A stretch of DNA of 64,000 nucleotides from a virus, in the IMG/VR virus record IMGVR_UViG_3300040807_001288, positions 12,710 through 76,709 of that record, one strand, 5' to 3'. Shown one piece after another: positions 3,545 to 64,000 of this stretch (positions are counted from its first letter, which is position 1; the number at the start of each line of letters is the position of its first letter). The notes under the pieces were generated by a model that made no database searches, had not been told where the DNA came from, and worked only from the letters and a program-made list of their open reading frames with translations. Made by a program: the position numbers and the translations under genes.

Positions 3545-4134
3545 CGCATTATCTCAATCTTCTTGTCCCAGCAGCTAATCATTAAGCTTATTCTGGATGT
3601 TCCTTGTTGCAGATGCTTTATGGGTAAAACACCGTGAGCCATATTCCCTTCGAAGATAACCAGTCTGTTAGGTTTGTATGGTATCTTGAGCCAGTCCTCG
3701 GCTTCCGATCTATCTTTTAGATCGTAAATGTTTGTCTCAAACTTGTAGCCTGGGTGATAACCGTTTGTGTCCATCACAAGCTCGCCGCCTTCCATACCAT
3801 CATCACCCCCCAAGAATATAACGGCAGTCTTTTTGGCTGTCTCTATATCTTCTGCTGCTTCATCACAATCCACATGATGGCTTAGGTGGTTCACTTCTTT
3901 GTCTAAGGAGTTAACCCATACTTCAAATCCATTGCTATTGAAGGCGGGATCAATAGTAGGCAAAGCTCTAATTATTTTGCATATATATTTTTCTGTATGA
4001 TCCTTATGTTTGTTCCCCCAAACGTACTTGCTAGTGAAAAAATCAAACTGCCAGGAGCCAGCGTAGTGAAAGAACCTATAAAGTTCTTCTAATATGTTAT
4101 CTTCGGAAAGGAAATCATCTATTATCTTAATCAC
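3541..4134 (-). CDS. 2OG-Fe(II) oxygenase (prolyl hydroxylase-like fold)
   Basis: HxD (HVD), GGEL, PNRLVIF, distal His (AHGV) and RxS (SRIS) motifs. Confidence 0.85.
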   Translation of the reverse strand: MIKIIDDFLSEDNILEELYRFFHYAGSWQFDFFTSKYVWGNKHKDHTEKYICKIIRALPTIDPAFNSNGFEVWVNSLDKEVNHLSHHVDCDEAAEDIETAKKTAVIFLGGDDGMEGGELVMDTNGYHPGYKFETNIYDLKDRSEAEDWLKIPYKPNRLVIFEGNMAHGVLPIKHLQQGTSRISLMISCWDKKIEIMR

Positions 4135-44635: not shown

Positions 44636-47600
44636 ATGGCGTTTGTTTATACAAAAACTATAGGTGTAGGTAAAGACTACACTACGTTTACCCTGGCTGA
44701 AGGAGATATAGTAAATATTCCTACATCTCCTGATTTAGTTGCCGAAGACGAGGCTATAGTTTTTGAAGTAGACGCGGGAACCTACAGTGAGTCCACAGTA
44801 TTTTTTGATGCTGCGGTCAGTGGAGACGCTGATCACCAAGTAACTTTCAAGCCCGCTCCAGGCAGTGAGCATAATGGTGAGTTCGGCACAGGTGTAATTA
44901 GAGAGTTTACTGGTGGAGGCACTTACTCATTCGTCACTCAAATGAGTGATCTAGTATTTTCTGGTTTAACCTTCTCTCTGCCTGACAATACTACCTATCT
45001 TCGCAGCTTGCTGATAGGTGAAGGTTCGGGTGTCTTTATTGATTCTTGTTTGTTTGATAATAAAAATAATAGAAACAGCTCAGAAACAGTTACTAATGCG
45101 AATTGGGGAGTAACCTTTAGGAACTGTGTATTCAAGAAGCTGGAAAAGTATTCAGATGTTATAACTTTTACCGCAGGGGCAACTTACGAAGGAAACGCTA
45201 AAGTTATAAACTGTTCTTTCTTGGGAGAGTACATAGGAGAGAGGGCTTTTGCTGTAAACTTTGCTGGCGACCTTACGCTGGAGGTCACCAACTGTATAGG
45301 TGCGATTGATCACGCATGGTATCAGACCGGAACCGGGACGCTTTCACTAACTGGAGGATTTAATTACTTCGGTCATAGTCAAGAAATTCCTGAGGCTATT
45401 CGAGGTCCTCTGCGTAGAATTTTTGCTACTCCTGCGATAACTTGTGAAGATTTCAACGCGATGATTCACAATGTTAGCTCTATGCAGTTATTCGATGTTA
45501 GTGGGCAAAAGATTACTGAGACTTCAGGCGCAGGTCCCTCTGTATCTTCTCTTTCTGTTCCAACCACTGACCTCGTAGGCAATCCGAGATCTGGTGCCAC
45601 CACCCTTCCTGGAGCCTGGGCTACGCTAACTTCTTCTTTAGGTGAGTACAACAATCCTACGGAGGTAATAAAATCCATAGGAACAAATAGTAGAGACTAT
45701 GCTACCATAGAACTTGCTGTTGCTGACATAACAAACGTCGCTGTGGCAGAGTTTGGTGGGCATAGTTTTGCTGGTTACAACGGAAAACTAATTTTTGAAC
45801 TATACAATGACTCTGTTTTTCAGTTAGCTTCGAATATTACTGTGTTTAATAGCACTAGACCTTTTCAGTGTGATCAGACAAGAAATATAACTTTTAGGCC
45901 AGCCGTAGGAGATCAGCACACAGGTATTGGTGGTACAGGTGTGCGGATAATTAATCCTAATTCCCAAAATTCGACGGGCATAACTGCGGGAGAAAACTTT
46001 ATGATTTTCTCTGGGTTGTCATTTGATTCTAATGACAACGGCTTCTCTTTTAATGCGCTTCCTTCTTATTTAAGTCTGATTCATAATTTCCGCTATAATG
46101 TTCACTTACCAATAGCCACCCAAGGAGTTACTTTTGTTAACTGTTTCTTTAATCTTCCTGAGTCTATTGCATCAACTCAATCTAATCTTAATGCACTTCA
46201 ACTAGGGTCTATAGGAAACTTAAGTGATGAGTACCGTAAATATGCTAAGGTAGGCACTGAAACGTACCCAATCATAATAAAAAATAATGTATTTCATAGG
46301 TGTGCTTGTGGATTAAACTCACCTAATTATGACACCGGACCCGATGTTCAGGCGCACTACCATTTAGTTAATAATACGTTAATTAATGATGGAAACATTT
46401 CGACTCAATCTCCGTTAAGAATCGGTGCTGGAGCGTTAGGCAACACTTACGCTCTTACTGCTGTAAATAATTTTATTCTTGTTGGAGAATCGGAGCGGCC
46501 CATAGGTGGATATGGTCCGTCAGCTATTTGCACTTTTGTAGGTTCAAACAATTACGCTTCTAATCCAACCAATAGACCTGCTCTTCCATTACCCCCCTTC
46601 AACGGCACTTATACATGGCCCACTTCACTTCAAGGTAGTCCAAACCCAATACAAAAAACTACTCTCTACGATCCCTCCTCTGTTTCTGGCGCGGGTGACT
46701 ACGGGATCTATGTCAAGAGCCGTGGTATTCTATTAGACAGCCCCCAGAACTCCCTTGTAAGCGGTGGAGTGGGTCCTGACGTAAGTTCTATAGTTCCCAC
46801 GACGGATATCCTAGGCAACCCAAGAACAGGCTCCTCCGTGAACCCAGGGGCGTATGCGAACACTAGTGAGACTGTTAGAGTTGTTAGAAGTTTAGGGCAC
46901 GAAAAAAATTACAGCACATGGAACCTGGGCATAGCTGATATTAGTGACATTTTATTATCTGACACAGAAACTTCAGCTTATGGAACGGACAGCTTACTAG
47001 AAGCTAACTGTGAGTTAGTTTTTGAGGCTTTTAGTTCTACGCCCAGTCAATACGGGGCATACACAAGATTAGATTTACCTTTTTACGACACAGATAAAAC
47101 ACGTCGGCTTCAGCTAAGTGCCACAGCTTCGCAAAGGCATCGAGGTAGGTTTAATACTGGAGTGAGTTTTTATGTAACAAGTAGTCCAGCCATTAGATGC
47201 CGAGGATCAAACTGGACTGTTGATGGTATTTTTATAAATAATGGCACTCCTATTGGAGATGGTTCTGTAGAGCCTACTGCTTTTGCTCCTGGAGATAAAT
47301 GGTTTGAAACATACCCTTACGATAGCGTTGCTTCTGGCGGTCTTTTTGGGATACATTTAAAAAATATATTTGTTAGCAATCCTTATCAAGTCTATTTTAA
47401 CACTGACAATAGGACCGGGGCAAAACGAGCAACTTTTGTTAACTTAAATAATTTAGGTTCAAGAAGCAATCCCATAGTTGTAGAAAATTGTGATTTTTTA
47501 GGAAATTCTCAGGCTGTTGATATTGTTAACAGTCCCACAGGATCAGGCAAAGAAACTCACGTTAGGATTGTTAATTGTAATTTTAATTCTCAGTGGAGAG

Positions 47601-50600
47601 GAGGTCCACACGGACAAACTTTAAGATTCATTGGACGTAATAATATCTATCCTTGTGTTACTTATGCTGATATAGTAAACTGCACTCATACAACAAATAC
47701 AACAAATTCCGTTCCTAGGCCCGACGGATATAATGAAGGGAACGGCACGACACAGGTTCTGGGTGGAGGGGGCGCGGACATATACTACGTCATGAACTCT
47801 GCTACCGAAGAAGAACTTCAAATAACTGGTGGAGGAAACTTGGGGCGATACCTAAGTCCCTCTTCTACCTTACTTAGAAGTTTTGGTGATTACGGTATTG
47901 GAGAAGCGATTCAGCCATCGAATGAATTCGATGGATCTAGTGCGGTATATAGACAACTTCAAGAAAACAACTGGCTTCGTTACTCTCCAAGTTTATATGA
48001 GCCATCAGCAGGGCAGTATCTCGCTGCGGAACGTGCTGAGGAATTATACGATACTGGGGGAGGATTGCTAATAAGCAATACAATGACACTGTTGTCGGGG
48101 ACAGGCAGATCGTTAGCCTCACCACACAATAATGCTGTAGGGAAAGGGCTATCTCATGAGGTTTGCTCTATTGTTCCCACCACAGATATGCTGGGCAACC
48201 CAAGAGATGCGTCTAGTATTTTAGTTGGGCCTTATTCCGTAGGCGAAGAAACGGTAGAAATTGTCCGCACAGTTGGCCCAGGACAGCAATACTCTACGAT
48301 GCCACTAGCAACAGGGGATATTGTAAACATCTGTACCAGTGCCGTTGAGCTATCCGCACAACCAGAACGGTTGGGAACTAATCTTTTCATGACAAACAAA
48401 AGATTAGTCTTTGCTCTTTCAGGAGAGCTTGGACATCTTGACAGTGCAGTCAACACCTATAAAGGTACAGTAGTCACTGATCCAACTAGAAATATAGTTT
48501 TCAGTGGAGTTGATAATCATAACGGTTATCGAGATCAAGGGTCTGTCCTGGCTGGAAGCGGATTCATAGTAAACAACAATATTGAACATACACTCTTTAA
48601 AAATATCCAATTTAAAGACTTAAGGGGCACAGGTGGTGGCTATCAGCTTTTCACCTCCAATCAATTTGAAGAAGAGGGAACGATAGGAACAACATTAGAT
48701 GGTTGTTTGTTTGTTCTTTCTGGAACTTCTAACCCTAGAATTATATCTCAAGGGTACAGGACAAAAGACTGCGGAACATACAGATATCCTTTCACCATTA
48801 AAAATTGTGTCCTAAGGACTGACCCCACACAAAATGTTCAGGGGGGTGTTTTGTATGGGAGCAATGCGGCTAGTGGTCACTTCTTTCATATAGAGCTTAT
48901 TAACAACACGTTTGATATAAAATCTAACGCTTATGCTGTTGGAACTACTTCATTTACAAACTATGATAAAGCCTTAATACGAACAATAAATAATTATAGT
49001 TTTGGTCATGGTAACAGTAACTCTCCAAACTCAAATACCTCTAATGTTTACTATCCAACAACGTCTGGAAACTGGATTAACGGCTATCTACCTGATAGGA
49101 CTTTTGGTGCTGGGACCACAGTTTATGGAGAATCTAGTAATGATAGATGGTCCCTCTCTGCGCTAGAGCCAAGTGCTACAGATAATCCTTACTACTCAGT
49201 GAGGACATCAAACTTTGTAGATTATAAAAACAATCTAATTAATGAAACAAAAGGCGTTGGTCCTGCTTCTAGCACATACATGGGAGTTCTAGTTCCCTCG
49301 GAAGATATTTTAGGTAATCCAAGAACAGGCACCACAACTCTTCCTGGAGCTTATTCCGTTCCCGAATTAAATACTATCAGCAGGAGAATATCAAAAACGG
49401 ACACAGGGCCTGACGTTTATAGTACATTCACGTTGGCTGAGGCCGATATTGTAAACATAGCTACAAGTGCTGTAATAAACGATGAGGTAGTTAATAAAGA
49501 TCTCATTTATCATAACGCTGAAATTGTTTTTGATGTTGATGCTGGCGAGTATGTAGAAGATTTCCGAATAGATCACAGCACCGATATACCACAAAAAGAC
49601 TATGCTCGTAGGATAACCTATACAGCAGCCAGCGATAGCGGACATCAGGGGTACGACAACAGTGGTGTTAGGATTGTGTCTGTTGCTGGTGCGGTTGGAA
49701 ATCACGTTGAAATAAAGGACAGTTATACTACGTTTGATAATTTTGTTATCCATAACATAAATGAATCTCTCACTCAAACAAAAGTTAACTTTACTGTTAA
49801 GTCAGGTCCTGTAGGTGTTATAGTAAAAAATAACATTATAGAAACATTTAATAACAGGCAAGCAGTTAGATTAGGGCAAGACTTTGCGGGCTCTGAGTAT
49901 GAGCCTATAGAAGTTTTTAATAACGTAATCCGAGCAGACAGAAGTAATAATCAATACGCCATATACATATACAATAATAGCAGCGGAGATCTATACACTA
50001 GGTTGTTAAACAACACTGTACTTGGTAACGTAAATATCCCTGCAATAGGCACTGCCGCAGCAACTATAGGAACTTCAGTTGCTCATGAAATGAGTAACAA
50101 CCTCGTTCTAAGTGATCGAGCGACTGCCTTCAACGTCATCCCTACAGGAGAAAACAACTTTGGACCCTCTGTTCAAGCATGGCCCGTTGCCATTCAAGGA
50201 TCTCCCTATCCAATAACACCAACCTTCTCAATCACCGACCCCTCATCCAGCCCATCAACGGACTTTGCGGTGTACATGGGGGTAACTAAAGCTTTAATAG
50301 ATATGTCAGGCAACGCTGTGTGGCAGAAAGGTATGGGACCAGCTTCCAGTACCCTCGTACCTACTACTGACATCTTAGGCAACCCTAGGAGTGGCCTTAC
50401 TGCAAACCCAGGAGCGTTTGAACTAGACGGAAACTTCCCTGTTATAGAGGTTCTAAGAACAATTGGACCGAGTAGAGATTATTCTACGTTTAGTTTGGCT
50501 GAGTCGGATGTTGTAGATATTGCTACTAGCGCCATTGGTGGCGAGGATCTAAGATACTACAACGGAAAAATAAAATTTGAGGCGGACGCGGGGACGTATG

Positions 50601-53600
50601 CGGAGAGCGTGAGCTTCAACAGCTCGTTGACGACGGACGCGACTCGCAACGTCACCTATCGTCCAGCAAGCGGCAGCGAGCACGGGGGGAGCCTTAGCTC
50701 GGGCGTGATTGTGAGTGGCTCCAGTGGAAACACGGCAGGGCTCTACGACGACTTTATCCACTTCGAGGGCATCGTCCTCAAGAGTTCCGCGTCCTACGCC
50801 CTCGCAATCGGCGCGGATGGAGTCACCGTGGACGGTCTAGTTCTGGCAAACACGAACTCGGACGTCGCGATCTTTCAGAATGGCACGGCTCTGAACCCCG
50901 TGCGCTGTCTGAATTGCGTCGCGCACGCGACCAACGGATACGGGTTCTATATCTTCGGGACGAGCACAGCGGCTCACGTTCATCTGGTCAACAGCACGGC
51001 GATCGTCTCCTCCGGCAGCTATGCAATTCGCAACTATGGCAGCGCCGCGAACCTGACGCTAATCAATCACCTCGGGCTCGTGACAAGCGGCGCGGCTTAT
51101 CAAGCAGTCGCAAGCCCGACGATCACGGGGAGCAATTGCTTCTCAACGGGAACTGGCCCTTTCCCCGCCGCCATCCAAGGCTCCCCTTATCCAGTTACTA
51201 CTACGACCAGACTTGATCCTTCTTCTGTTTCTGGTGCTGATGATTATGCAATCTTCCTACCAAGAACAGGTCAGTTGGCTGACGCTGAACAGAACGTGGT
51301 TCTCAGTGGTGGTGTTGGTCCTGCATCTAGCACACTTGTTCCTACTACGGACATTCAAGGCAACCCAAGATCAGGAGCCACAGCTAACCCAGGAGCTTTC
51401 GAGGTCGCTCTACCTCTCACAGAAACCATAAGGACCATTGGAGCTAGTGGACAAGACTACACTACTATATCTCTAGCTCTTGGTGATATGCCTGACATTG
51501 CGCTGAGTGCTTTCGGTAGCACAGACATCGCATCAAAAAACGCTAGGATTACTTTCCATATTGTTCCTGGATCTTATGCTAGAGCTACAAACATCTCTAA
51601 TACAGTTTCGGGTGATTCAGATAGATTTATTACTCTTAGTTCTACTGAGCCTTTAGGTGCTGTAGTAAACAAAGGTTCGATAGCATTTAATGCCTTTACA
51701 TTCGCAGAACCAGCGGAGTATTTTAAATTCAAAGGTATTTATGCTGCTGGAACAGTTGGTGGTTTCGCTGTTGCAAATACCCCCTTCAGAGGGATTACCG
51801 TCGAAAGCTGCTTTCTGGAGACCGAATCGACTCCACAATATGCGGGGTGGCGGGGGCAAGGAGCGGTGGCCTATGCAGGAACTGAAGATGATCCTCTGGT
51901 GCTTATTAACAACATAGGAGCAACTCCTAACCTTGTTCAACTAGAGCATTCTGGCGCAGCTTGCAACGTTAGCGCCGTAAACAACACACTTGTAAAGAAT
52001 TTTGAAGGAAACTATACCAAGGGAATGTTCCATACAGAGCAAGCCGTATCAAATAAGTTCCGCCTGTACAATAACATCAACCTAAATGAGGGAACTGCGG
52101 ACAATCAAGGTTTTGTAAGAATTCAAAACGGAACTATTGATGTGTCGGGTGCGGGGAACGTATCCAAAGTAAACCCCACTCAAGGTGCTGAGGCTCTTGG
52201 AATAGGTGTTGATCTTCCAATCACTAGATCATTATCTCCAGACACCTCTAGTGCTATCTTTGTTGGAACTTCAGGTATCTTGTTCGACAATGCGAACAAC
52301 GAAGCTATTGGACGAGGAGCAAGTTCGTTTGCTCCTACAACTGACATCCTGGGAAACACTAGAGTAGGTAATAACCCAGGTGCTTGGGGCACAACTGTCT
52401 CCTCTGTAGATACATCTACCTTTAGTATAGGTACAAGTGGTAGAGACTTTACCACATTCACACTAGCTAATGCAACTATCGCAGATATGGTGGGATCTAG
52501 TCTTGTTGTAGACAATACTAAAGTAAACTTCGATGTTCATAATGATGATGTTTTCCGTGAGTCGGTTAACTTTGGAACAAACCTAGAGGCTGATGAAGAT
52601 AGATTCATTACATATCAGGCTGCTTCTGGCGATCAACACAACGGCCTTATAGGAACTGGATCCCGCCTAGAGACCAGTGTTGGAGGTCACACGCTTCAAG
52701 ATGATTATACTATTTTTGACGGGTTAGCCTTCGGTTTAGTAGGAGTGCAAAACTCCAAATCGCTTTTCGATCTTACCCAGGACACCAACACTAAAGAAGG
52801 AACTATTTTCCAAAACTGTATATTCTATGATGAAACAGGCAATTCCAACATAGGCATTGATGGAAGAACTAAATATAACCTAGGTTCTCAGACGGACCCC
52901 ATTGAGATAGACAATGGAGTATTCTATAACTTTGCTTTCCCAGTCAGTTATGGATACAATGGAGGCGATAATTTTGAACACAGATTTGAGCTAATTAACT
53001 GCTCTTTCTTAGGCAACGATAGGGCTATTAGAGTTGACCTCAGATCAACTAATAGCACCGTGTATAGTAAGCTTGTAAACCTTCTTGCTTACAACTCTAC
53101 AGTAGCGGATCTGGAAGAAATTTCTGGCGCAGCTACACACTCCACTTTAGGAAGTAGACAAAACTACGGACTCAGAGGAGACTTTCCTGGATTAGGTAGT
53201 AGGAACCCTGTGTCGGGAACGACTGATCTCGATCCACAAACTTCAGGATTCCATGCTATTCATGTTGCGTCGGGTGATCCAACTCCTGCAATTGATAGCG
53301 ACAATGATATACTAAGCCAGGGCATTGGCCCTCTTGTTGTGTCTGATGTTCCTCAGTTTGATATACTAGGAGTAGAGAGGCCACAGACTCAATGTGAGCC
53401 TGGAGCTTTCCAAGTGAGTGGTGGAGGAGTTATAATTCCAGAAAAACCTACCAATCCCTCACCAGCATATGAGGCTACAGATGTTGAGGCTAACCCCACA
53501 ATATCTTGGGTGGACGACCCTGTGACTGCGCCTACTGGTTGGAAGGTTTACTTCTCAACTTCACCCATTTTCACTGAGGCTGATGTTGTACACAGAGGCC

Positions 53601-54481
53601 CCGCTGGATTTAAGCTTGAAGAAGCGTTAGAAGAAAGCACTAATTACTTCTGGAAAGTGGTAAGCACTAAAGATTATGGAGATGCTACCGCTGTCACTAA
53701 TGGCCCCACCTGGGAATTCTTAACATCAAACAGCTTCGTCCCTCCTTCTCCAGATACTCCAGGCAAAAATGAGTCTGTATCTACTGATTGGAGTGCGTCC
53801 TCAGTATTTAGTCGAAGCCGTAGTTGGGGTACTAGGGAGGGGGATGTTCGAGCTAAGATATTCAAGATGACCCAGGCTAAGTCTAACATATCGTTCGTAT
53901 ACAGAGAGTCCTTAAGATCCATGATAGCCTCTTTCAACGATATCGGATACTTTAACTCTGAAGATGCTTTTGTGGATGTTCAATGTGTGCATGGCAACGC
54001 AGAAAGAACCATAGCCAAACTTAAACAAGAAAACAATATCATTCTTCCAATTATATCTGTTTCTCAGACTGTATCGGACAACGATGATGATCGGCGTAGG
54101 TATGAGAGCGTCCTGATTCACGAAAAATATTGGGACGAAGAAATGAATAGAGCCATTAGAATCGTTAGCCTAGCGCCTAGACCTGTAAATATTAAGTATC
54201 AGGTTAATGTTTGGTGCAAGTACATGGCTGATATGGATCAAATCCTTGAACAAATAAGATTGAAATTCAACCCTGAAATGGATATTTACACCACCTACTC
54301 AACGCTTGCAAAGGCTTCTGTAGACAGTGAGGAGGCTGTGGGTAGCATGTCTGCTAAAGATAAAGAAGATAGAGTTATTAAGAAAACACTAAACGTAACT
54401 CTAAAGACGTACATTCCCAGCCCCAAGTTCCTAATAACTTCTACGGGTCAAATCGAAGAGTTTAAAATAAAGACGGACTAA
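44636..54481 (+). CDS. 3281-aa protein: eight beta-helix-like modules, an Ig/FN3-like domain and a C-terminal gp15-like tail terminator
   Basis: Eight TIG..xDY..F.LA starts and eight PTTDILGNPR...PGA ends. The C-terminus has LPIIS and PVNIKYQVNVWCKYMADMDQILEQIRLKFNP (gp15-like). It sits between gp14 and the sheath gene. Confidence 0.78.
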   Translation: MAFVYTKTIGVGKDYTTFTLAEGDIVNIPTSPDLVAEDEAIVFEVDAGTYSESTVFFDAAVSGDADHQVTFKPAPGSEHNGEFGTGVIREFTGGGTYSFVTQMSDLVFSGLTFSLPDNTTYLRSLLIGEGSGVFIDSCLFDNKNNRNSSETVTNANWGVTFRNCVFKKLEKYSDVITFTAGATYEGNAKVINCSFLGEYIGERAFAVNFAGDLTLEVTNCIGAIDHAWYQTGTGTLSLTGGFNYFGHSQEIPEAIRGPLRRIFATPAITCEDFNAMIHNVSSMQLFDVSGQKITETSGAGPSVSSLSVPTTDLVGNPRSGATTLPGAWATLTSSLGEYNNPTEVIKSIGTNSRDYATIELAVADITNVAVAEFGGHSFAGYNGKLIFELYNDSVFQLASNITVFNSTRPFQCDQTRNITFRPAVGDQHTGIGGTGVRIINPNSQNSTGITAGENFMIFSGLSFDSNDNGFSFNALPSYLSLIHNFRYNVHLPIATQGVTFVNCFFNLPESIASTQSNLNALQLGSIGNLSDEYRKYAKVGTETYPIIIKNNVFHRCACGLNSPNYDTGPDVQAHYHLVNNTLINDGNISTQSPLRIGAGALGNTYALTAVNNFILVGESERPIGGYGPSAICTFVGSNNYASNPTNRPALPLPPFNGTYTWPTSLQGSPNPIQKTTLYDPSSVSGAGDYGIYVKSRGILLDSPQNSLVSGGVGPDVSSIVPTTDILGNPRTGSSVNPGAYANTSETVRVVRSLGHEKNYSTWNLGIADISDILLSDTETSAYGTDSLLEANCELVFEAFSSTPSQYGAYTRLDLPFYDTDKTRRLQLSATASQRHRGRFNTGVSFYVTSSPAIRCRGSNWTVDGIFINNGTPIGDGSVEPTAFAPGDKWFETYPYDSVASGGLFGIHLKNIFVSNPYQVYFNTDNRTGAKRATFVNLNNLGSRSNPIVVENCDFLGNSQAVDIVNSPTGSGKETHVRIVNCNFNSQWRGGPHGQTLRFIGRNNIYPCVTYADIVNCTHTTNTTNSVPRPDGYNEGNGTTQVLGGGGADIYYVMNSATEEELQITGGGNLGRYLSPSSTLLRSFGDYGIGEAIQPSNEFDGSSAVYRQLQENNWLRYSPSLYEPSAGQYLAAERAEELYDTGGGLLISNTMTLLSGTGRSLASPHNNAVGKGLSHEVCSIVPTTDMLGNPRDASSILVGPYSVGEETVEIVRTVGPGQQYSTMPLATGDIVNICTSAVELSAQPERLGTNLFMTNKRLVFALSGELGHLDSAVNTYKGTVVTDPTRNIVFSGVDNHNGYRDQGSVLAGSGFIVNNNIEHTLFKNIQFKDLRGTGGGYQLFTSNQFEEEGTIGTTLDGCLFVLSGTSNPRIISQGYRTKDCGTYRYPFTIKNCVLRTDPTQNVQGGVLYGSNAASGHFFHIELINNTFDIKSNAYAVGTTSFTNYDKALIRTINNYSFGHGNSNSPNSNTSNVYYPTTSGNWINGYLPDRTFGAGTTVYGESSNDRWSLSALEPSATDNPYYSVRTSNFVDYKNNLINETKGVGPASSTYMGVLVPSEDILGNPRTGTTTLPGAYSVPELNTISRRISKTDTGPDVYSTFTLAEADIVNIATSAVINDEVVNKDLIYHNAEIVFDVDAGEYVEDFRIDHSTDIPQKDYARRITYTAASDSGHQGYDNSGVRIVSVAGAVGNHVEIKDSYTTFDNFVIHNINESLTQTKVNFTVKSGPVGVIVKNNIIETFNNRQAVRLGQDFAGSEYEPIEVFNNVIRADRSNNQYAIYIYNNSSGDLYTRLLNNTVLGNVNIPAIGTAAATIGTSVAHEMSNNLVLSDRATAFNVIPTGENNFGPSVQAWPVAIQGSPYPITPTFSITDPSSSPSTDFAVYMGVTKALIDMSGNAVWQKGMGPASSTLVPTTDILGNPRSGLTANPGAFELDGNFPVIEVLRTIGPSRDYSTFSLAESDVVDIATSAIGGEDLRYYNGKIKFEADAGTYAESVSFNSSLTTDATRNVTYRPASGSEHGGSLSSGVIVSGSSGNTAGLYDDFIHFEGIVLKSSASYALAIGADGVTVDGLVLANTNSDVAIFQNGTALNPVRCLNCVAHATNGYGFYIFGTSTAAHVHLVNSTAIVSSGSYAIRNYGSAANLTLINHLGLVTSGAAYQAVASPTITGSNCFSTGTGPFPAAIQGSPYPVTTTTRLDPSSVSGADDYAIFLPRTGQLADAEQNVVLSGGVGPASSTLVPTTDIQGNPRSGATANPGAFEVALPLTETIRTIGASGQDYTTISLALGDMPDIALSAFGSTDIASKNARITFHIVPGSYARATNISNTVSGDSDRFITLSSTEPLGAVVNKGSIAFNAFTFAEPAEYFKFKGIYAAGTVGGFAVANTPFRGITVESCFLETESTPQYAGWRGQGAVAYAGTEDDPLVLINNIGATPNLVQLEHSGAACNVSAVNNTLVKNFEGNYTKGMFHTEQAVSNKFRLYNNINLNEGTADNQGFVRIQNGTIDVSGAGNVSKVNPTQGAEALGIGVDLPITRSLSPDTSSAIFVGTSGILFDNANNEAIGRGASSFAPTTDILGNTRVGNNPGAWGTTVSSVDTSTFSIGTSGRDFTTFTLANATIADMVGSSLVVDNTKVNFDVHNDDVFRESVNFGTNLEADEDRFITYQAASGDQHNGLIGTGSRLETSVGGHTLQDDYTIFDGLAFGLVGVQNSKSLFDLTQDTNTKEGTIFQNCIFYDETGNSNIGIDGRTKYNLGSQTDPIEIDNGVFYNFAFPVSYGYNGGDNFEHRFELINCSFLGNDRAIRVDLRSTNSTVYSKLVNLLAYNSTVADLEEISGAATHSTLGSRQNYGLRGDFPGLGSRNPVSGTTDLDPQTSGFHAIHVASGDPTPAIDSDNDILSQGIGPLVVSDVPQFDILGVERPQTQCEPGAFQVSGGGVIIPEKPTNPSPAYEATDVEANPTISWVDDPVTAPTGWKVYFSTSPIFTEADVVHRGPAGFKLEEALEESTNYFWKVVSTKDYGDATAVTNGPTWEFLTSNSFVPPSPDTPGKNESVSTDWSASSVFSRSRSWGTREGDVRAKIFKMTQAKSNISFVYRESLRSMIASFNDIGYFNSEDAFVDVQCVHGNAERTIAKLKQENNIILPIISVSQTVSDNDDDRRRYESVLIHEKYWDEEMNRAIRIVSLAPRPVNIKYQVNVWCKYMADMDQILEQIRLKFNPEMDIYTTYSTLAKASVDSEEAVGSMSAKDKEDRVIKKTLNVTLKTYIPSPKFLITSTGQIEEFKIKTD

Positions 54482-57872: not shown

Positions 57873-60296
57873 ATGGATTATTTCTCAGAACTACTGGAGA
57901 GCTATGGTAAGCTCAAGAAGAGGACCTATAAGCTTACATATATCACTGAGCAGGTAGGCAATCCTGAAGCGGAACTTATTAACATACTTAAAAATGCTCC
58001 CGAAGGAGATGAAGCTCCCATAACAGGCACCCCTTATCCCGCACTAGAAAAGTTTAAGTATAACAAATCTAAAGGTGGGGATGACGGTGTTAATGTTAAT
58101 GGAAGTATCGGAGGTAGACCATTTACTGTTCAGATCTTAAAAGATGGTAGCTTTAACGACGAAGGTTCCGCTCCTGAGATGAAAGATGCCTTGCTAAAGG
58201 CAATGGCGGGAGAGGCTCCAGACCCTACACCAGCAGATCAAGCGGCTCAAACCATGGCTGATCAAGCCGCCGCGAGAGAGCAATTTTTAGCTACAAGGAC
58301 GGGGCAGTTTGTAGACCAAGGGTACTCCATAAATCCAGATGATGAAGTTAACATCAATGCTGGTATGATTTCACTACAGAAAACTCAGGAAGCACTAGAG
58401 GGTTACTGTCAGAAATGGGATCCCAATCGACTAGGCACCAGCATCAAGTGGTGTAAAAGCCAAAAGACCTTTATCACAGGATCCTCAAAATCTTCCATGA
58501 CCTGGAAAATTGCTAACGGAACTAGTATAAGTGACCCTCCTGATGAGAGGGAACAACCCCTTCCCGCAGGTCTAATTAACGATGCTCTTAAAAGTAATGA
58601 CATTCTGCTATCCTTCATTACAGATCCCCCTAATGATGACAACAAAGAAGAGCGTTGTGCTGAGTTAAAAAACAGAGTTGGATCTAGAGGAAAGGGTAGA
58701 CTTGTTCTTTTTGGAGAAGATATAGATGAAGCAACGGGAAGACCTTCTGATGGTATCGTGGTAAACGTCACAAACAGTGCTTATCTGTATCAAGACGCCT
58801 TCGGTGCTGCCGAAAAAAGCTGTGGAGAATCTTTCAAGCCTACTGCTTTAGGCTCCGCTTCCACCAACAACAAAGCACTAAACACCATCCGAGGAACGGT
58901 TAATGAGAAGGCTCTTCAGTTAGCAGTTCGATTAAACAGAAAAGATATAACTCCAGAAGAGAGACGAGAAGCGTTCAAAGATATTGCTTCTTACATCTTG
59001 GAGAAGCAGACAGCATTAAGAGAGTTCGCTCAACAGACGCTTTCTGAAGGAGCGGATCCTCCTGCCAAGGATCTAGGAATGGCTGATGAAGAGGAGATTT
59101 TAATGGAACAGTTTGAGATGTCTAAGAGTGATGAGCTTATTAGATATACATTGGAGGTTGTAAGAAAGCACCAAGAGTTTGTTAAGTTCATGGGCGCTGA
59201 TGATTCTTACGATTACGCGAAAGGTGGTGGTACGGGTGCCAGAGCGGATAGTGTTCTTTTATATAACTCTGAGGAGGACGCTCTCGCTGCCGCTGAACGT
59301 GCTGGGTTGAACCCAAAGAAGGCCGTTACCTTAAATAAAGAGAAGGGTATGTTTGAAATAGGTATCGGTCAGAAGGATAAGAAGGACGGTATTGGATCTG
59401 TAAAAATGGGTGAGTTCAACTCTACTGATAGACGTAGAGGCGTAGTCAGGGGAGAGCTTGCAGACGACAAGATTGGAAAAGACTTCTATAAGTGGGCCGA
59501 CGACCTTCAGTTCGGAGGAGGTGCTGCGGGTCAAGAAAGAAGACAGGCAATGCTGGACTTTGAGGATGAGCTAGAGTCCGAAGTGGCTGGCCTTGGATCT
59601 AAGATTAGAAATGGAATAATCTACAATGGAGACGAAGGAACTACTAGAGTATCTCCAAGAGAAATTCTTTCCATGATGTCGAAGGTTGTTGTAAAGTCTC
59701 TAGGGTTTAAAGGAAAAACATCTGAGGACACTAGAGAGATGGGCAATGCCTTCGTAGGCAAAATTGATTTCAACGATAAGTCTGAAATTAATAAGAGAGC
59801 GGAGCTAATGGAGAGGAAGGCCAGAGTAAAAAAGGTTTCCGACGCTCTCAAAGACCCTGAAAGACAACAAGCCGCTAAAGATTGGGTGATTAGAAACGCC
59901 ATGATGACTGGTGGAAACCAGCGGGACATTCTACAGCTAGTAACTTCTTACAATGAAAACAGATCTGTGGCTGTTAATCACAACAAGTTTTTTGATATGC
60001 TTAATGATTCAAGCAGTGATGTAAGCATAGAGCCTAGCAGATCAGGAAGCTCCTTCGTTATTACTGTCGATGGTCTAGAGGCTACTCTAGGGTTTGAAGG
60101 AACTAGTACGACTAATGGCAGAGAGACTAGAACTGCATTCAACCTGTCTAAGGGAGCGGTTCTTAGTCCTAAGATGGGTCAAGGGTTTACTACCCCACCT
60201 GCTAAGAAATCTAGTAACAAAGAGGAGAGCACCTTGTATAACTTCATTGAGAAGCAGGTTAAGCTCCTAGAAGGTTTGATCAATCAAGCCAAATGA
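57873..60296 (+). CDS. Hypothetical 807-aa protein
   Basis: Long ORF with N-terminal LLE/ITE sites and a possible degenerate PD-(D/E)XK-like motif. Confidence 0.7.
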   Translation: MDYFSELLESYGKLKKRTYKLTYITEQVGNPEAELINILKNAPEGDEAPITGTPYPALEKFKYNKSKGGDDGVNVNGSIGGRPFTVQILKDGSFNDEGSAPEMKDALLKAMAGEAPDPTPADQAAQTMADQAAAREQFLATRTGQFVDQGYSINPDDEVNINAGMISLQKTQEALEGYCQKWDPNRLGTSIKWCKSQKTFITGSSKSSMTWKIANGTSISDPPDEREQPLPAGLINDALKSNDILLSFITDPPNDDNKEERCAELKNRVGSRGKGRLVLFGEDIDEATGRPSDGIVVNVTNSAYLYQDAFGAAEKSCGESFKPTALGSASTNNKALNTIRGTVNEKALQLAVRLNRKDITPEERREAFKDIASYILEKQTALREFAQQTLSEGADPPAKDLGMADEEEILMEQFEMSKSDELIRYTLEVVRKHQEFVKFMGADDSYDYAKGGGTGARADSVLLYNSEEDALAAAERAGLNPKKAVTLNKEKGMFEIGIGQKDKKDGIGSVKMGEFNSTDRRRGVVRGELADDKIGKDFYKWADDLQFGGGAAGQERRQAMLDFEDELESEVAGLGSKIRNGIIYNGDEGTTRVSPREILSMMSKVVVKSLGFKGKTSEDTREMGNAFVGKIDFNDKSEINKRAELMERKARVKKVSDALKDPERQQAAKDWVIRNAMMTGGNQRDILQLVTSYNENRSVAVNHNKFFDMLNDSSSDVSIEPSRSGSSFVITVDGLEATLGFEGTSTTNGRETRTAFNLSKGAVLSPKMGQGFTTPPAKKSSNKEESTLYNFIEKQVKLLEGLINQAK

Positions 60297-60826: not shown

Positions 60827-61171
60827 ATGGACACCAAGCCTGAAAATATCAAACTTAACGTAGAAAACTGGAAGATCCGCGTAGATGAGCGGAGCAGGAA
60901 CAGAATGAAAATTCAACTCAAACTATCAAAAGATGAGGCCCTCGGCTACAAGCATTTCGCTGAGGTCTGCAAGCCTGGAGAAGTCTCGGACGCAGACTTC
61001 ATGAAGATTGTATTCTTCACGGGCATGGAAGCACTGAACCAGCAGATCGTGCAGCAGGTTCAAGAGTATGCTCTGAACAATAAAGAAGAGCTTGCCGCAT
61101 CAGGCATCACAGTAATCGAAGGCGAGGACGGGGTATCCCTATCCGATTCAAATGCTGTGGAAGCTGACTGA
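60827..61171 (+). CDS. Hypothetical protein
   Basis: 114-aa ORF coupled to the next gene by TGATG. Confidence 0.7.
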   Translation: MDTKPENIKLNVENWKIRVDERSRNRMKIQLKLSKDEALGYKHFAEVCKPGEVSDADFMKIVFFTGMEALNQQIVQQVQEYALNNKEELAASGITVIEGEDGVSLSDSNAVEAD

Positions 61172-61512
61172 TGTACAAACTAAAATTTTTATCTAAAGAG
61201 AATGATCTAAACAAGATCATCAAATCTCACAAGAAAGAGCGCGATAGCCTAAGTATTTTGTTCATCTCTTTGTGGGATGAGTGGTGTCAAAACTTAGTCG
61301 ATGATCTTAAAAAACGCTACGACGGCGTAGAGAAGGGCCAGCCACTCTATATTGTCGATAGCTTTTATATGCCTCACAGCTTTGTGATCTACAATACCAC
61401 TAAGCTACCACACCTTGTGCATCTGAACAATAGGGGAGTTCATTCGGAGGATTACCTACCGATGATCTACAACACCCTTCTTCCAGACAAGAAGAAAAAG
61501 AAGACTAAATGA
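61171..61512 (+). CDS. Thioredoxin-fold protein lacking CxxC
   Basis: ILFISLWDEWC at the WCxxC position and TKLPHL at the cis-Pro position. Confidence 0.55.
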   Translation: MYKLKFLSKENDLNKIIKSHKKERDSLSILFISLWDEWCQNLVDDLKKRYDGVEKGQPLYIVDSFYMPHSFVIYNTTKLPHLVHLNNRGVHSEDYLPMIYNTLLPDKKKKKTK

Positions 61513-61846
61513 GTCTGTCCTTATTTCTTTCTATGTAGTTATCTATTTTCTGATTGTACTTCTTTTCTTTTGTGTAAAGCAGTTTCAGATTGTTTACGAT
61601 AACTGTTGTAAAGTAATTGAAAGCCGTGCCCTTGCGCGGCTTAAAGTTTTTTACGGTCCTCAATACCAGCGTGAAGCATTCTTGTTTGGCATCATCCGAG
61701 TCCACGTTAAACTTGAAGGTAGCCAGGATGTTGTTTATGAGAACGTCGAATAAACATACTAGCTCTTCTTCGTGATTTTCTGGGTCATTCTGGTATGATA
61801 GTATGATTCTTTCGAACTCCTCGTTATCTATGTAATGCTTCTTCAT
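61505..61846 (-). CDS. Late-transcription sigma factor (T4 gp55-like), very short
   Basis: HYIDNEEF, DDAKQE and NFKP..GTAFNYFTT match the gp55 pattern (YVNN..., NPFAYFTQ). Confidence 0.75.
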   Translation of the reverse strand: MKKHYIDNEEFERIILSYQNDPENHEEELVCLFDVLINNILATFKFNVDSDDAKQECFTLVLRTVKNFKPRKGTAFNYFTTVIVNNLKLLYTKEKKYNQKIDNYIERNKDRLI

Positions 61847-61849
61847 ACA

Positions 61850-61858
61850 CTATAATAG
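61850..61858. promoter_or_regulatory. CTATAATAG element in a 14-bp divergent gap
   Basis: The gap ACACTATAATAGCC lies between two outward-facing ATGs. Confidence 0.55.
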
Positions 61859-61860
61859 CC

Positions 61861-62883
61861 ATGTTTAATCTAGATGACCTGTATCAGGGGCATAAACCCT
61901 TGGGTGACAATCCCTTGTGCGCGGGATGCACTATCCTTGAGCAGTCCAAGCCATGCCACTCAGTCATGGATTACGAGAGTTTGGAGGAGTGCAACGTACT
62001 CTTTCTTTCTGATTCTGTGCGCCCTCATACCAGACACTCACCCTTCCCCGTAACATCTTTCGGCAAGGCAGAGTTGCGCCTACTCAAGGAGAGTTACCCT
62101 GAGAAGTTTGTCACGGCGGCTTCCGTCAAGTGCCCTTCAGTTAAGGAGGGTGACATGACACCAAACAACATGAACCTGTGTCGCCAGCACCTTGAGGCTA
62201 CGATTGATAAGGTTAAGCCTAAGCTAATCTTTACCTGTGGCAACCTGCCTATGAAGATGCTTCTTAAGAAGAGTGGCATCACGACTAAGCGTGGTAAATC
62301 CTTTGAGTATAGTACCGAGGCGGGCCATCAATGCATTGTGGTTCCTATCTTTCACCCGTGGGCGTGCATCAAGGAGCCTCGACACCTAGCTCTATTTAAG
62401 AAGGACATTCAGAATGCATACGAGAAGTACATCCTGTGTAAGGACTCTTCTGGGGACTTCAAGTACAAGGTTCTTATGAGCTTTGATGAGGTTGAAGCTC
62501 TACATAAACAACTCAAAGAATCAGAAGATACACTGGCTGTTGACACAGAGACTACTGGGCTAAACTTCTTGGAGGATGAGATCATGACGATCTCTATTAC
62601 CAGCAAGGAGAACACTTGGGTCATTCCCTTGGATCATAAAGACTCACCATTCAAGGACCAGCCGAAGGTCTGGATTCTTCTTCGTGATATCCTACAGAAC
62701 CCCAAGAATAAGAAAGTATTTCACAACGCTAAGTTCGACTTGAAGTTCTTGATCAACTATGGTATCTACACTAAGAATGTGTGGGACACCAAGATCATGC
62801 ATCACCTTCTAGATGAGAACATGCCTAAGGGTCTGATGGATCTTACCAAACTGTACTTCGCCAACGAACTGGAGAACCTGTAA
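61861..62883 (+). CDS. Split DNA polymerase A, part 1: UDG family 4-like domain plus most of the 3'-5' exonuclease
   Basis: CxxC, VKCP, LC and FHP UDG features. ExoI DTETTG, ExoII HNAKFD, and DTKIMHHLLDEN. Confidence 0.85.
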   Translation: MFNLDDLYQGHKPLGDNPLCAGCTILEQSKPCHSVMDYESLEECNVLFLSDSVRPHTRHSPFPVTSFGKAELRLLKESYPEKFVTAASVKCPSVKEGDMTPNNMNLCRQHLEATIDKVKPKLIFTCGNLPMKMLLKKSGITTKRGKSFEYSTEAGHQCIVVPIFHPWACIKEPRHLALFKKDIQNAYEKYILCKDSSGDFKYKVLMSFDEVEALHKQLKESEDTLAVDTETTGLNFLEDEIMTISITSKENTWVIPLDHKDSPFKDQPKVWILLRDILQNPKNKKVFHNAKFDLKFLINYGIYTKNVWDTKIMHHLLDENMPKGLMDLTKLYFANELENL

Positions 62884-63362
62884 TGCTTACGATTGACAAC
62901 CCCAGCAAGTTTGACTGGGCCAACATGGAGCTATCGGATTGCTGTGAAGGCAACGCGATGGACACCTACTTCACACTCAAGCTCTTCGACCTGATCATGG
63001 AGAAGCTTGATGGTCAGCCCGTCATGAAGCTGATTGAAAATGTAGTCATGCCCTCACTAGAAACCTTCTCCGAGATGGAGTATAATGGACTACTGGTGGA
63101 TACCAGCCGTCTAGATGCAGTAGGCCGTCAACTTAAGTCCAAGAACATGGAAGACGAGGATAGTCTATACTCAATCAAGGGCGTTCAGAATACGGACAAC
63201 TTGTCTTCCAATAATGACCTGATTGAGATTTTGTATACCCGCGAAGATGGCATGGAGCTTTATCCTCCTGACAAGACCGCCAAGGGAAAGCCCTCGGTCT
63301 CTGCACCTACATTAAAATTACTACTAGAACACATCGAAGAGGAGTTGGCTACCCGTGAGTAA
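62883..63362 (+). CDS. Split DNA polymerase A, part 2: ExoIII helix and start of thumb
   Basis: GNAMDTYFTLKLF, MEYNGLLVD, NLSS...L and TAKGKPS motifs. Confidence 0.85.
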   Translation: MLTIDNPSKFDWANMELSDCCEGNAMDTYFTLKLFDLIMEKLDGQPVMKLIENVVMPSLETFSEMEYNGLLVDTSRLDAVGRQLKSKNMEDEDSLYSIKGVQNTDNLSSNNDLIEILYTREDGMELYPPDKTAKGKPSVSAPTLKLLLEHIEEELATRE

Positions 63363-64000
63363 GTGGAAGCACAGAGAAGAAGGCAAGAAGATTAGTAAGT
63401 CCGTGGTAGCTAGTAAAAGCACTGAGGACCTGAAGAACGCTCAAGGATTCCTCAAGGGCCTACTTAATCTTCGCAAGTCCGAGAAGCTTACGAAGACATA
63501 CATTGATGGGACTAAGAAGGCTATCGACTACAACGGTAAGAACAAGGTATTCGTAGACTTCAGGTTTGACGGCACAGCGACGGGCCGTCTGTCTTGCGCT
63601 GCATACAACGCTCAGAAGGCTATGGGCGTGTCGTTCCACACTCTCCCCAGAGAGACTGAGAACAACATTAGAAGCCTGTTCACGGCCCCTCCTGGCTGGT
63701 CATTTATTGCTGCTGACTACGCAGCGATGGAACTTCGTGTCCTGTCACACATTGCCAAAGAGGGCAACATGCAGCTTGCCTTCAACCAGGGCGCGGACCT
63801 ACATACATACACGGCCAAGCTTCTGTTCAATAAGGAGAACATCAAGAAAGAGGAGCGCCAGATCGCAAAGGCGGTATCCTTCCTGATTGTGTATGGCGGT
63901 GGTGCTTTCAACCTTAGCGAGACTATGGGTATCCCGATGAAGCGGGCTGAGAGAATCATTAAAGATTACGAGAATGTTTATCCAGGAATCTTTGAGTACA
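63355..64000 (+). CDS. Split DNA polymerase A, part 3: polymerase domain (3' truncated, absent from the ORF track)
   Basis: GTG start with GAGGAG RBS. My translation gives KLTKTY, TATGRLS, IRSLF, motif A ADYAAMELR, DLH and motif B RQIAKAVSFLIVYG. The frame is open to the window end. Confidence 0.9.
   Translation, partial: MSKWKHREEGKKISKSVVASKSTEDLKNAQGFLKGLLNLRKSEKLTKTYIDGTKKAIDYNGKNKVFVDFRFDGTATGRLSCAAYNAQKAMGVSFHTLPRETENNIRSLFTAPPGWSFIAADYAAMELRVLSHIAKEGNMQLAFNQGADLHTYTAKLLFNKENIKKEERQIAKAVSFLIVYGGGAFNLSETMGIPMKRAERIIKDYENVYPGIFEY

What the first reader, a model, noticed from the sequence alone, without database searches (positions are those of the whole stretch)
61861..64000. Family A DNA polymerase split into three translationally coupled genes in a T4-like phage
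Seen: UDG+ExoI/II, ExoIII+thumb and palm/fingers lie in three ORFs in frames 1, 3 and 1. The junctions are a TAATG overlap with GGAG upstream and an 8-nt GTGAGTAA overlap with GAGGAG upstream. Both breaks fall inside domains, and the second has extra terminal peptides of opposite charge (acidic EHIEEELATRE, basic SKWKHREEGKKISK). No intron or intein sequence intervenes. Known: PolA is normally one chain, and classical T4-like phages use PolB. Inference: a naturally heterotrimeric PolA.
Basis: partly seen in the sequence, partly recalled or inferred. Interest (0 to 1): 0.85.

Follow-up and report, generated by a model that had tools for sequence, protein, structure and literature searches.

The report
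Three-gene split phage DNA polymerase
This uncultured estuarine/marine tailed phage, like hundreds of related contigs, encodes its only recognisable DNA polymerase as three separate conserved genes, cut in the proofreading domain and in the thumb, so the enzyme most likely works as a three-protein complex and is not a sequencing error.

Summary
ORF1 (61861-62883) carries the UDG-like domain plus ExoI/II. ORF2 (62883-63362) carries ExoIII plus the first thumb helices. ORF3 (63355 to the contig end) carries the rest of the thumb, the palm and the fingers. They meet at a TAATG overlap and a GTGAGTAA overlap.

The split is not an artefact. All 80 related IMG/VR loci examined keep the same breakpoints, and none is fused. 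Independent DNA contigs and RNA-library contigs are colinear across both junctions without indels. All three pieces are under strong purifying selection (dN/dS 0.03-0.12).

In about half of the relatives, ordinary accessory genes sit at junction 1, many on the opposite strand. One relative has a gene at junction 2. This excludes frameshifting, introns and inteins.

New here is a natural series: single-chain UDG-PolA, then a two-gene form with break 1 only, then the three-gene form. Break 2 falls inside a thumb insertion that is continuous in a two-gene relative. The ExoIII tyrosine is glycine in all split forms examined. Two near-complete relatives (111 and 118 kb) have no other family A or B polymerase.

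Assembly into a heterotrimer is inferred, not shown. Two-gene PolA splits are published. I found no description of this three-gene form, although this scan has met it on other genomes.

The parts
61850..61858 (.). CTATAATAG motif 2 nt upstream of the ORF1 start, shared with the divergent sigma-like gene 61505-61846(-); candidate bidirectional promoter
   Evidence: The same motif lies upstream of starts at 60827(+), 60798(-) and 5504(-). A related CTATTATATATAG lies just upstream of ORF2 in relatives with an insert at junction 1. Function is inferred only.
61861..62883 (+). ORF1, 340 aa: family-4 UDG-like domain (about aa 1-190) plus the N-terminal two thirds of the 3'-5' exonuclease domain (ExoI D228-x-E230, ExoII N289..F292-D293)
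   Evidence: Pfam UDG 29.6 bits and DNA_pol_A_exo1 78.8 bits. PDB hits are S. tokodaii UDG 4zbx (E 1.8e-8) and Klenow chain 22-128. Invariant columns are in alignment A2. dN/dS is 0.04-0.12.
62871..62885 (+). Junction 1: GGAG (62871-62874) and the TAATG stop/start overlap (62881-62885)
   Evidence: The same TAATG overlap occurs in 36 related contigs. In 38 others it is replaced by inserts of 173-2403 nt.
62883..63362 (+). ORF2, 159 aa, the bridging piece: ExoIII helix (G23-N-A-x-D27) plus the start of the polymerase domain and the first thumb helices (Klenow/Pol I 520-616)
   Evidence: PDB alignment. 528 clusters at 90% identity, nearly all 158-159 aa. Both termini are highly conserved (A1). 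dN/dS is about 0.03.
63339..63362 (+). Junction 2: GAGGAG (63339-63344) and GTGAGTAA, the 8-nt overlap of the ORF3 start with the ORF2 stop (63355-63362)
   Evidence: An 8-nt overlap occurs in most of the 80 loci, with variants of -26, -5, -4, -1 and +2 nt, so the frame relation is not constant. The ORF3 start is GTG in most loci and ATG in others, always just before a conserved K-W. L009 has a 208-aa gene inserted here.
63355..64000 (+). ORF3, first 215 of 361 codons (cut by the contig end): basic N-terminal tail, thumb helix I, palm and fingers with motif A (D121, E126) and motif B (R168, K172, F176, Y180). Motif C (H295-D296) lies beyond the window.
   Evidence: Pfam DNA_pol_A 163.6 bits. 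Bst and Klenow alignments. Invariant columns are in A3. The full length is read from L002:5473-6555.

Best explanation
The phage's replicative family A DNA polymerase, of the UDG-PolA type, has undergone two gene fissions and is made as three separately translated proteins that most likely reassemble into one enzyme. ORF1 supplies the UDG-like domain and the ExoI/ExoII part of the proofreading fold. ORF2 is a 159-residue bridge: its first ~45 residues supply the ExoIII helix that completes ORF1's exonuclease fold, and the rest supplies the start of the polymerase domain and the first thumb helices, which pack against ORF3. ORF3 supplies thumb helix I, the palm and the fingers with catalytic motifs A, B and C. 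Both cuts map to inter-helix surface loops. Break 1 lies in a variable loop between the ExoII region and the ExoIII helix. Break 2 lies inside a 35-45-residue thumb insertion specific to this lineage. Break 1 arose first and is shared with two-gene relatives. Break 2 arose once later. Shown here: the genes are separate, conserved, selected and colinear in DNA and in RNA-library contigs. Inferred: 1:1:1 assembly, catalytic activity, and translational coupling through the overlapping stop/start codons.
For: Same breakpoints, and no fused form, in all 80 related IMG/VR loci at 61-100% ORF2 identity. 528 ORF2 clusters at 90% identity, nearly all 158-159 aa. About 80 full-length stand-alone ORF2 representatives rank above any longer protein in an exhaustive search of 1.84 billion representatives. 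Synonymous sites are saturated while pN is 0.04-0.29, and dN/dS is 0.03-0.12 for each piece. The catalytic carboxylates ExoI D/E, ExoII D and ExoIII D, and polymerase motifs A, B and C, are invariant. An independent DNA contig spans both junctions with 0 gaps, and RNA-library contigs span junction 1 (62832-63274) and junction 2 (63052-63699) with 0 differences. Unrelated genes lie at junction 1 in 38 contigs and at junction 2 in L009. Two-gene relatives have the same break 1 and the same gene neighbourhood. Split forms make one clade (SH-aLRT 100) and three-gene forms a sub-clade (99). The breaks align to coil 337-353 and turn 484-487 in the AF2 model of the single-chain relative P0243, and to the end of helix 149-168 or the start of loop 169-182 in the model of the two-gene relative P0217. 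Two near-complete relatives (110.9 kb, 99% complete; 118.2 kb, 100% complete) have one PolA locus and no PolB match.
Against: There is no direct evidence of a complex or of activity. The ExoIII tyrosine is replaced by an invariant glycine in the split forms examined, so proofreading chemistry may be weakened or altered. UDG motif A (GEAPG in the single-chain relatives P0257 and P0266) reads LSDS here, so glycosylase activity is doubtful. Coupling at junction 1 is lost in about half of the relatives, so it is not essential. The window's own contig is only 67% complete, so 'only polymerase' rests on relatives, and polymerase families other than A and B were not searched. RNA-library contigs may derive from contaminating DNA.
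Confidence: 0.8

Rival explanations
1. The pieces are real separate genes but do not rebuild one enzyme. For example, ORF2+ORF3 or ORF3 alone could be the polymerase, and ORF1 could be an independent or degenerate UDG/exonuclease-like accessory protein.
For: The ExoIII Tyr is lost and UDG motif A has diverged. Junction 1 is often interrupted, and ORF2 then has its own promoter-like motif, so ORF1 and ORF2-ORF3 can be expressed separately.
Against: The ExoIII Asp sits on ORF2 while ExoI and ExoII sit on ORF1, and all are invariant. ORF1 lies directly upstream in every contig that reaches far enough, and it is under the same strong purifying selection. PolAs are reported to need the exonuclease domain for stability (Czernecki et al. 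2023, PMC10201439).
Confidence: 0.12
2. Programmed recoding (a -1 shift at junction 1 and a +1 shift at junction 2, or translational bypass) yields a single-chain polymerase.
For: The two frame changes compensate each other (frames 1, 3, 1), and the junctions are short overlaps.
Against: 38 of 74 contigs have 173-2403 nt at junction 1, many carrying opposite-strand genes, and L009 has a gene at junction 2. The ORF2/ORF3 frame relation differs among relatives, with overlaps of -8, -26, -5, -4, -1 and +2. Each downstream ORF keeps its own start codon at a fixed position: ATG for ORF2, GTG or ATG for ORF3.
Confidence: 0.03
3. Sequencing or assembly indels, or a decaying pseudogene.
For: The record is a single metagenomic contig, and two compensating frame changes are what paired indel errors would give.
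Against: Identical architecture appears in contigs from many independent samples and studies, with heavy synonymous divergence. No gaps appear in laid contigs. dN/dS is at most 0.12. It is the only PolA/PolB locus in complete relatives.
Confidence: 0.01
4. The pieces are joined after transcription or translation by a group I intron, a split intein or RNA editing.
For: Phage polymerase genes often carry introns and inteins (literature cited in PMC10580990).
Against: The ORFs overlap, so nothing can be excised. No Rfam family is found in the window region or in L004, L007 and L009. The inserted genes are a glycosyltransferase, a 2OG-Fe(II) oxygenase, DUF6445 and unknowns, not homing endonucleases. 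The junction peptides are a continuous thumb insertion in P0217 and are too short for intein halves. RNA-library contigs are colinear with the DNA.
Confidence: 0.01

Closest known systems
Two-gene exo|pol split PolA of S-SBP1-like T7-like cyanophages (Czernecki et al. 2023, NAR, PMC10201439); also split PolA of an uncultured cyanophage lineage (bioRxiv 10.1101/325100) and of OM43 phages MEP401/MEP402 (PMC10580990)
   Same: A phage family A polymerase divided by gene fission into separately translated proteins that are expected to reassociate, with no intron or intein. In MEP401 a small unrelated ORF lies between the halves.
   Different: Those have two pieces. The S-SBP1 type is cut at the exonuclease/polymerase domain boundary. 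Here there are three pieces, both cuts lie inside domains (one across the exonuclease active site, one in the thumb), the enzyme carries a UDG-like head, and the phage is a distant T4-like myovirus.
Single-chain UDG-PolA polymerases (N4-like cluster 17; SPO1/SP-10 type; SP15-like YerA41/phiLo; PMC10201439 and bioRxiv 10.1101/2025.03.26.645540)
   Same: The order is the same: family-4 UDG-like domain, 3'-5' exonuclease, polymerase. Single-chain relatives of 755-1208 aa are found with the ORF2 profile. As reported for N4-like enzymes, UDG motif A is not canonical here.
   Different: Those are one polypeptide, and their ExoIII motif keeps YxxxD. Membership of any of their clusters was not tested.
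Genes in pieces in T4-related phages (split gp43 PolB, and nrdA split by the mobE homing endonuclease in Aeromonas phage Aeh1; recalled from Petrov/Karam and Friedrich et al., not re-read here)
   Same: An essential replication enzyme of a T4-type phage is encoded in separately translated pieces with foreign DNA at the junction.
   Different: The polymerase family differs (A, not B). No homing endonuclease was found at the junctions that were Pfam-scanned or inspected. The inserts look like ordinary accessory genes.

Membership tests
Family A DNA polymerase (Pfam DNA_pol_A) | Profile match above the curated cut-off | tested here: met
   ORF3 (partial) scores 163.6 bits against a cut-off of 34.3. 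Full ORF3 matches Bst Pol I at E 4e-44.
Family A DNA polymerase (Pfam DNA_pol_A) | Motif A (D..E), motif B (R..K..F/Y..YG), motif C (HD) | tested here: met
   D121, E126, R168, K172, F176, Y180, G181, H295 and D296 are invariant in 23 ORF3 sequences.
Family A DNA polymerase (Pfam DNA_pol_A) | Templated DNA synthesis | not testable with these tools
   Needs expression and primer-extension assays.
DEDD(y) 3'-5' proofreading exonuclease (DNA_pol_A_exo1) | ExoI DxE and ExoII NxxxFD | tested here: met
   D228, E230, N289, F292 and D293 are invariant in ORF1. Pfam scores 78.8 bits.
DEDD(y) 3'-5' proofreading exonuclease (DNA_pol_A_exo1) | ExoIII YxxxD | tested here: not met
   The Asp (ORF2 D27) is invariant, but the Tyr position is an invariant Gly (G23-N-A-x-D). 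Single-chain relatives have YxxxD.
Family 4 uracil-DNA glycosylase | Profile match, Fe-S cysteines, motif B His-Pro | tested here: met
   Pfam UDG scores 29.6 bits against a cut-off of 24.3. 4zbx matches at E 1.8e-8, aligning VKC and the LC..L cysteines. C20, C23, C91, C107, H165 and P166 are at least 90% conserved.
Family 4 uracil-DNA glycosylase | Motif A GE(A/G)PG | tested here: not met
   It reads F-L-S-D-S here and is not covered by the Pfam match. The single-chain relatives P0257 and P0266 keep GEAPG and GEYPG.
S-SBP1-like split PolA (T7-like cluster 5) | A single fission at the exonuclease/polymerase domain boundary | tested here: not met
   There are two fissions. One lies between ExoII and ExoIII and one lies in the thumb.
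Intron- or intein-interrupted polymerase gene | An intervening ribozyme or intein sequence | tested here: not met
   The ORFs overlap. There is no Rfam hit. No homing endonuclease was found among the inserts.
T4-like phages (classical Tevenvirinae) | gp23-type capsid and T4-type tail genes | tested here: met
   The MCP is about 30% identical to T4-like cyanophage head proteins. PHROG hits cover head protease, major head protein, tail sheath and baseplate wedge. A gp15-like domain is present.
T4-like phages (classical Tevenvirinae) | gp43 family B replicative polymerase | tested here: not met
   There is no PF00136 match in the contig or in two near-complete relatives.

The most novel reading that the evidence does not exclude
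This clade preserves a stepwise natural fission series of a replicative polymerase, one chain to two to three. The 159-residue middle protein acts as a detachable strap that joins a UDG/exonuclease module to the polymerase core, so proofreading/UDG and synthesis can be coupled, uncoupled or expressed separately. Loss of the ExoIII tyrosine came with the first cut. The first cut has since become a hot spot for accessory genes inside an essential enzyme.
Probability: 0.25. Interest if true: 0.75.

Novelty: new variant of a known kind. Interest (0 to 1): 0.6.

Why it matters
Family A polymerases are the textbook single-chain polymerases. The only published natural fissions I found are two-piece, and the best-analysed one is cut at the exonuclease/polymerase domain boundary. 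A widespread phage lineage that runs replication on a three-piece enzyme would be a natural fragment-complementation experiment. Its proofreading site would be assembled from two chains, and its thumb would be cut at the tip. That bears on how multi-subunit polymerases can arise from single-chain ones, and on where engineered split polymerases can be cut. The single-chain, two-gene and three-gene relatives give ready-made comparators. There is also a practical side. Annotation pipelines and polA marker-gene surveys of marine viruses will call these genes fragments or pseudogenes, or miss the 159-aa piece, which has no Pfam match.

Tried and rejected
Complex prediction of ORF1+ORF2+ORF3 with ORF2 as partner returned 'no answer', because a control in which chain 3 was replaced scored the same as the true complex.

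I fetched the context of the two-gene relatives with the search for related loci instead.

blastn of the region against GenBank phages found nothing. tblastn of ORF3 found only matches below 40% identity, so there is no cultured close relative in that collection.

A word-indexed search for longer, fused ORF2 homologues found none. This is weak evidence. The exhaustive HMMER search then found the two-gene and single-chain relatives.

The homing-endonuclease origin of the breaks was rejected for lack of any such gene among the scanned inserts. Group I introns were rejected because Rfam found none.

Literature searches for a three-piece PolA gave nothing relevant. One search call failed on term length.

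In RNA libraries X15 and X16, parts of the region had no contig cover. That is not evidence of anything.
Full report
WHAT IS IN THE WINDOW

The window is the last 64 kb of a 76.7-kb linear IMG/VR viral contig estimated 67% complete. The window end is the contig end.

ORF listing and sequence show ORF1 at 61861-62883 (340 aa, frame 1), ORF2 at 62883-63362 (159 aa, frame 3) and ORF3 from 63355 (GTG start, frame 1), which runs off the contig after 215 codons. Junction 1 is TAATG (62881-62885) with GGAG 9 nt upstream. Junction 2 is GTGAGTAA (63355-63362) with GAGGAG 10 nt upstream.

Pfam finds UDG (aa 80-175) and DNA_pol_A_exo1 (aa 209-334) in ORF1, nothing in ORF2, and DNA_pol_A profile positions 51-254 in the partial ORF3.

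Sequence comparison with solved structures gives the following mapping.
- ORF1 217-319 aligns to Klenow chain 22-128 (ExoI, ExoII).
- ORF2 45-146 aligns to Klenow chain 197-293 (Pol I 520-616) and Bst chain 176-267.
- ORF3 27-345 aligns to Bst chain 269-575.

Break 1 therefore lies between ExoII and ExoIII. Break 2 lies in the thumb, just before helix I. By my recollection of the Bst numbering (thumb 496-595) this is about residue 564. That numbering is from memory.

The observation as written is correct.

IT IS NOT AN ARTEFACT

A scan of IMG/VR with ORF2 gave 8 loci. A scan with an ORF2 alignment found 127, of which the best 80 were kept. A scripted tblastn/ORF survey of the 80 found the following.
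- Junction 2 is split in 80 of 80. The overlap is usually 8 nt, but -26, -5, -4, -1 and +2 nt also occur, so the frame relation between ORF2 and ORF3 is not constant.
- Junction 1 is split in 74 of 74 informative loci: 36 with the TAATG overlap and 38 with inserts of 173-2403 nt.
- No locus has a fused reading frame.
- Some loci are near-duplicates, so these are contig counts and not independent lineages.

The ends of the proteins are fixed. ORF1 ends ...ELE(N/D/S)L, ORF2 starts MLT(I/V) and ends ...EEELxxR(E/G), and ORF3 starts (M/V)xKW.HR(D/E). The ORF3 start is GTG in most loci and ATG in others.

Nei-Gojobori comparison of six relatives shows synonymous sites near saturation (pS 0.62-0.97), pN of 0.04-0.29, and dN/dS of 0.03-0.12 where it can be computed, for all three pieces.

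Twenty public runs from 19 studies hold all or part of the stretch, 16 of them at least half of its sampled words. They are estuary, salt-marsh and other aquatic metagenomes. When laid on the window, an independent salt-marsh DNA contig covers 62533-64000 with 9 substitutions and no gaps. RNA-library contigs cover 62832-63274 and 63052-63699 with no differences. No indel or joint is reported anywhere. RNA-library contigs may contain DNA, so the RNA result is a weak argument against RNA-level repair.

SEPARATE TRANSLATION

The inserts at junction 1 carry ordinary genes, many on the opposite strand.
- A lipoprotein-like family.
- A family with a Y(E/D)RIGESIW(N/D)TY N-terminus.
- A 91-aa membrane-like protein.
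- A family-2 glycosyltransferase.
- A 2OG-Fe(II) oxygenase.

L009 also has a 208-aa DUF6445-like gene between ORF2 and ORF3. No homing endonuclease was detected and no Rfam family was found. With opposite-strand genes between the pieces, ribosomal frameshifting, bypass, splicing and inteins cannot join them. The junctions behave like normal intergenic sites.

WHERE IT COMES FROM

I searched 1.84 billion representative proteins with a profile of 16 ORF2 sequences, using HMMER with no length filter. The results fall into three tiers.
- About 80 full-length stand-alone representatives of 147-181 aa match end to end (E 4e-66 to 5e-19).
- Next come proteins of 515-563 aa that start with the same MLT... 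N-terminus (P0217, P0227, P0229, P0238, P0247, P0249, P0250).
- Last come single-chain proteins of 755-1208 aa in which the ORF2-like region starts near residue 310-370 (P0243, P0266, P0257 and others).

The 515-563-aa proteins are ORF2+ORF3 in one chain. Their loci show an ORF1 homologue directly upstream, ending at the same place, in the same gene neighbourhood. These loci are L090, and L091 on a 118-kb contig rated complete.

An alignment of the three classes shows three things.
- Break 1 lies in a loop of variable length between the ExoII-region helix and the ExoIII helix.
- The split forms in that alignment, and all 16 ORF2 sequences of A1, read GNAxD where the single-chain forms read YxxxD.
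- The three-gene forms and P0217 share a 35-45-residue insertion in the thumb. Break 2 lies inside it.

The acidic C-tail of ORF2 and the basic N-tail of ORF3 are therefore the two halves of an older insertion.

AF2 models of natural unsplit relatives place the breaks in loops.
- In P0243 (pLDDT 84), break 1 maps to coil 337-353 between helices 328-336 and 354-381. Break 2 maps to turn 484-487 between helices 474-483 and 488-514.
- In P0217 (pLDDT 86, Foldseek TM about 0.68 to Bst, Klenow and Taq large fragments), break 2 maps to the end of helix 149-168 or the start of loop 169-182, where pLDDT is 67-72.

A quick maximum-likelihood tree of the ORF2+ORF3 region puts all split forms in one clade (SH-aLRT 100) and the three-gene forms in one sub-clade (99). 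The two-gene forms are unresolved at its base. Caveats: the root on single-chain forms is assumed, the junction columns were not removed, and only three-gene forms with at least 61% ORF2 identity were sampled.

The simplest history is one early fission at break 1 and one later fission at break 2.

WHAT IT DOES

The phage is a myovirus with a distant T4-type virion. The evidence is PHROG hits for head protease, major head protein, tail sheath and baseplate wedge, an MCP about 30% identical to T4-like cyanophage head proteins, and a gp15-like domain.

No family B polymerase is found in the contig. In two near-complete relatives, G001 (110.9 kb, three-gene) and G002 (118.2 kb, two-gene), there is exactly one PolA locus and no PolB. 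The split enzyme is thus the only A- or B-family polymerase these phages encode, which fits a replicative role.

All polymerase motifs and the four DEDD carboxylates are invariant. The carboxylates are shared between ORF1 (ExoI, ExoII) and ORF2 (ExoIII), so an active proofreading site needs both chains.

I therefore read ORF2 as a bridge. Its N-terminal helix completes ORF1's exonuclease fold, and its C-terminal two thirds complete ORF3's thumb and polymerase-domain base. This assembly, and translational coupling through the overlaps, are inferences.

Two features argue for caution about accessory activities. The ExoIII tyrosine is glycine. UDG motif A reads LSDS in place of GE(A/G)PG, although the Fe-S cysteines and the motif B His-Pro are conserved.

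COMPARISON WITH WHAT IS KNOWN

Czernecki et al. 2023 (PMC10201439) describe an exonuclease|polymerase fission into two genes in S-SBP1-like T7-like cyanophages as the first such case in PolAs. They also describe UDG-PolA fusions (N4-like, SPO1-type). SP15-like UDG-PolAs have cryo-EM structures (bioRxiv 10.1101/2025.03.26.645540). Two-piece PolAs are also reported in an uncultured cyanophage lineage, in OM43 phages with a small ORF between the halves and in P-SSP7 (cited in PMC5434244).

I found no paper describing a three-gene PolA or cuts inside the exonuclease site and the thumb. The library is not exhaustive.

This scan has met the same architecture on several other genomes. My results agree with those notes. 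They add the two-gene intermediates, the origin of the junction peptides, the junction-1 insertion hot spot, the ExoIII Tyr-to-Gly change and the contig evidence.

VERDICT

This is a real, conserved, selected three-gene UDG-PolA and a new variant of a known kind (split PolA). Confidence that the genes are separate and functional is about 0.97. Confidence that they form one three-subunit enzyme is about 0.8.

Noticed in passing
window 44636-54481 (+): A 3281-aa ORF whose only Pfam match is a T4 gp15 tail-sheath-stabiliser domain at residues 3091-3279. It looks like a roughly 3000-residue N-terminal extension on a tail-completion protein.
   Followed up: no
window 61850-61858; also upstream of starts at 60827(+), 60798(-), 5504(-); L004/L005/L007 just upstream of ORF2: The near-palindromic motif CTATAATAG / CTATTATAG lies within about 20 nt upstream of start codons, only 2-5 nt upstream at three of the four window sites. 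In the window these sites lie between divergently transcribed genes. A related motif sits in front of ORF2 wherever a reverse-strand gene is inserted at junction 1. It is a candidate bidirectional promoter giving near-leaderless mRNAs.
   Followed up: partly
L014-L089, between the ORF1 and ORF2 homologues: Junction 1 is an insertion hot spot, with 38 of 74 contigs carrying 173-2403 nt. Recurrent families of small genes, mostly on the reverse strand, occur there: lipoprotein-like LSSCSTIKHAVGG, Y(E/D)RIGESIW(N/D)TY proteins, a 91-aa membrane-like protein, plus a GT2 glycosyltransferase and a 2OG-Fe(II) oxygenase.
   Followed up: partly
window 62949-62963 (ORF2 residues 23-27): The ExoIII motif reads G-N-A-x-D in every split form examined, where single-chain relatives read Y-x-x-x-D. 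Loss of the tyrosine goes with break 1.
   Followed up: partly
window 57873-60296 (+): An 807-aa ORF between the tail genes and a PDDEXK endonuclease gene has no Pfam or PHROG match.
   Followed up: no
window 61505-61846 (-): A 113-aa protein with a weak Sigma70 region 2 match (22.7 bits, just under the cut-off) is transcribed divergently from ORF1. The same gene sits in the same place in the two-gene relatives L090 and L091. It may be a small phage sigma-like factor.
   Followed up: no
L041, L042 (ORF2 homologue 4001-4495): In these relatives ORF2 is 165 aa and overlaps ORF3 by 26 nt instead of 8. This shows that the exact stop position at junction 2 drifts while the ORF3 start stays put.
   Followed up: no
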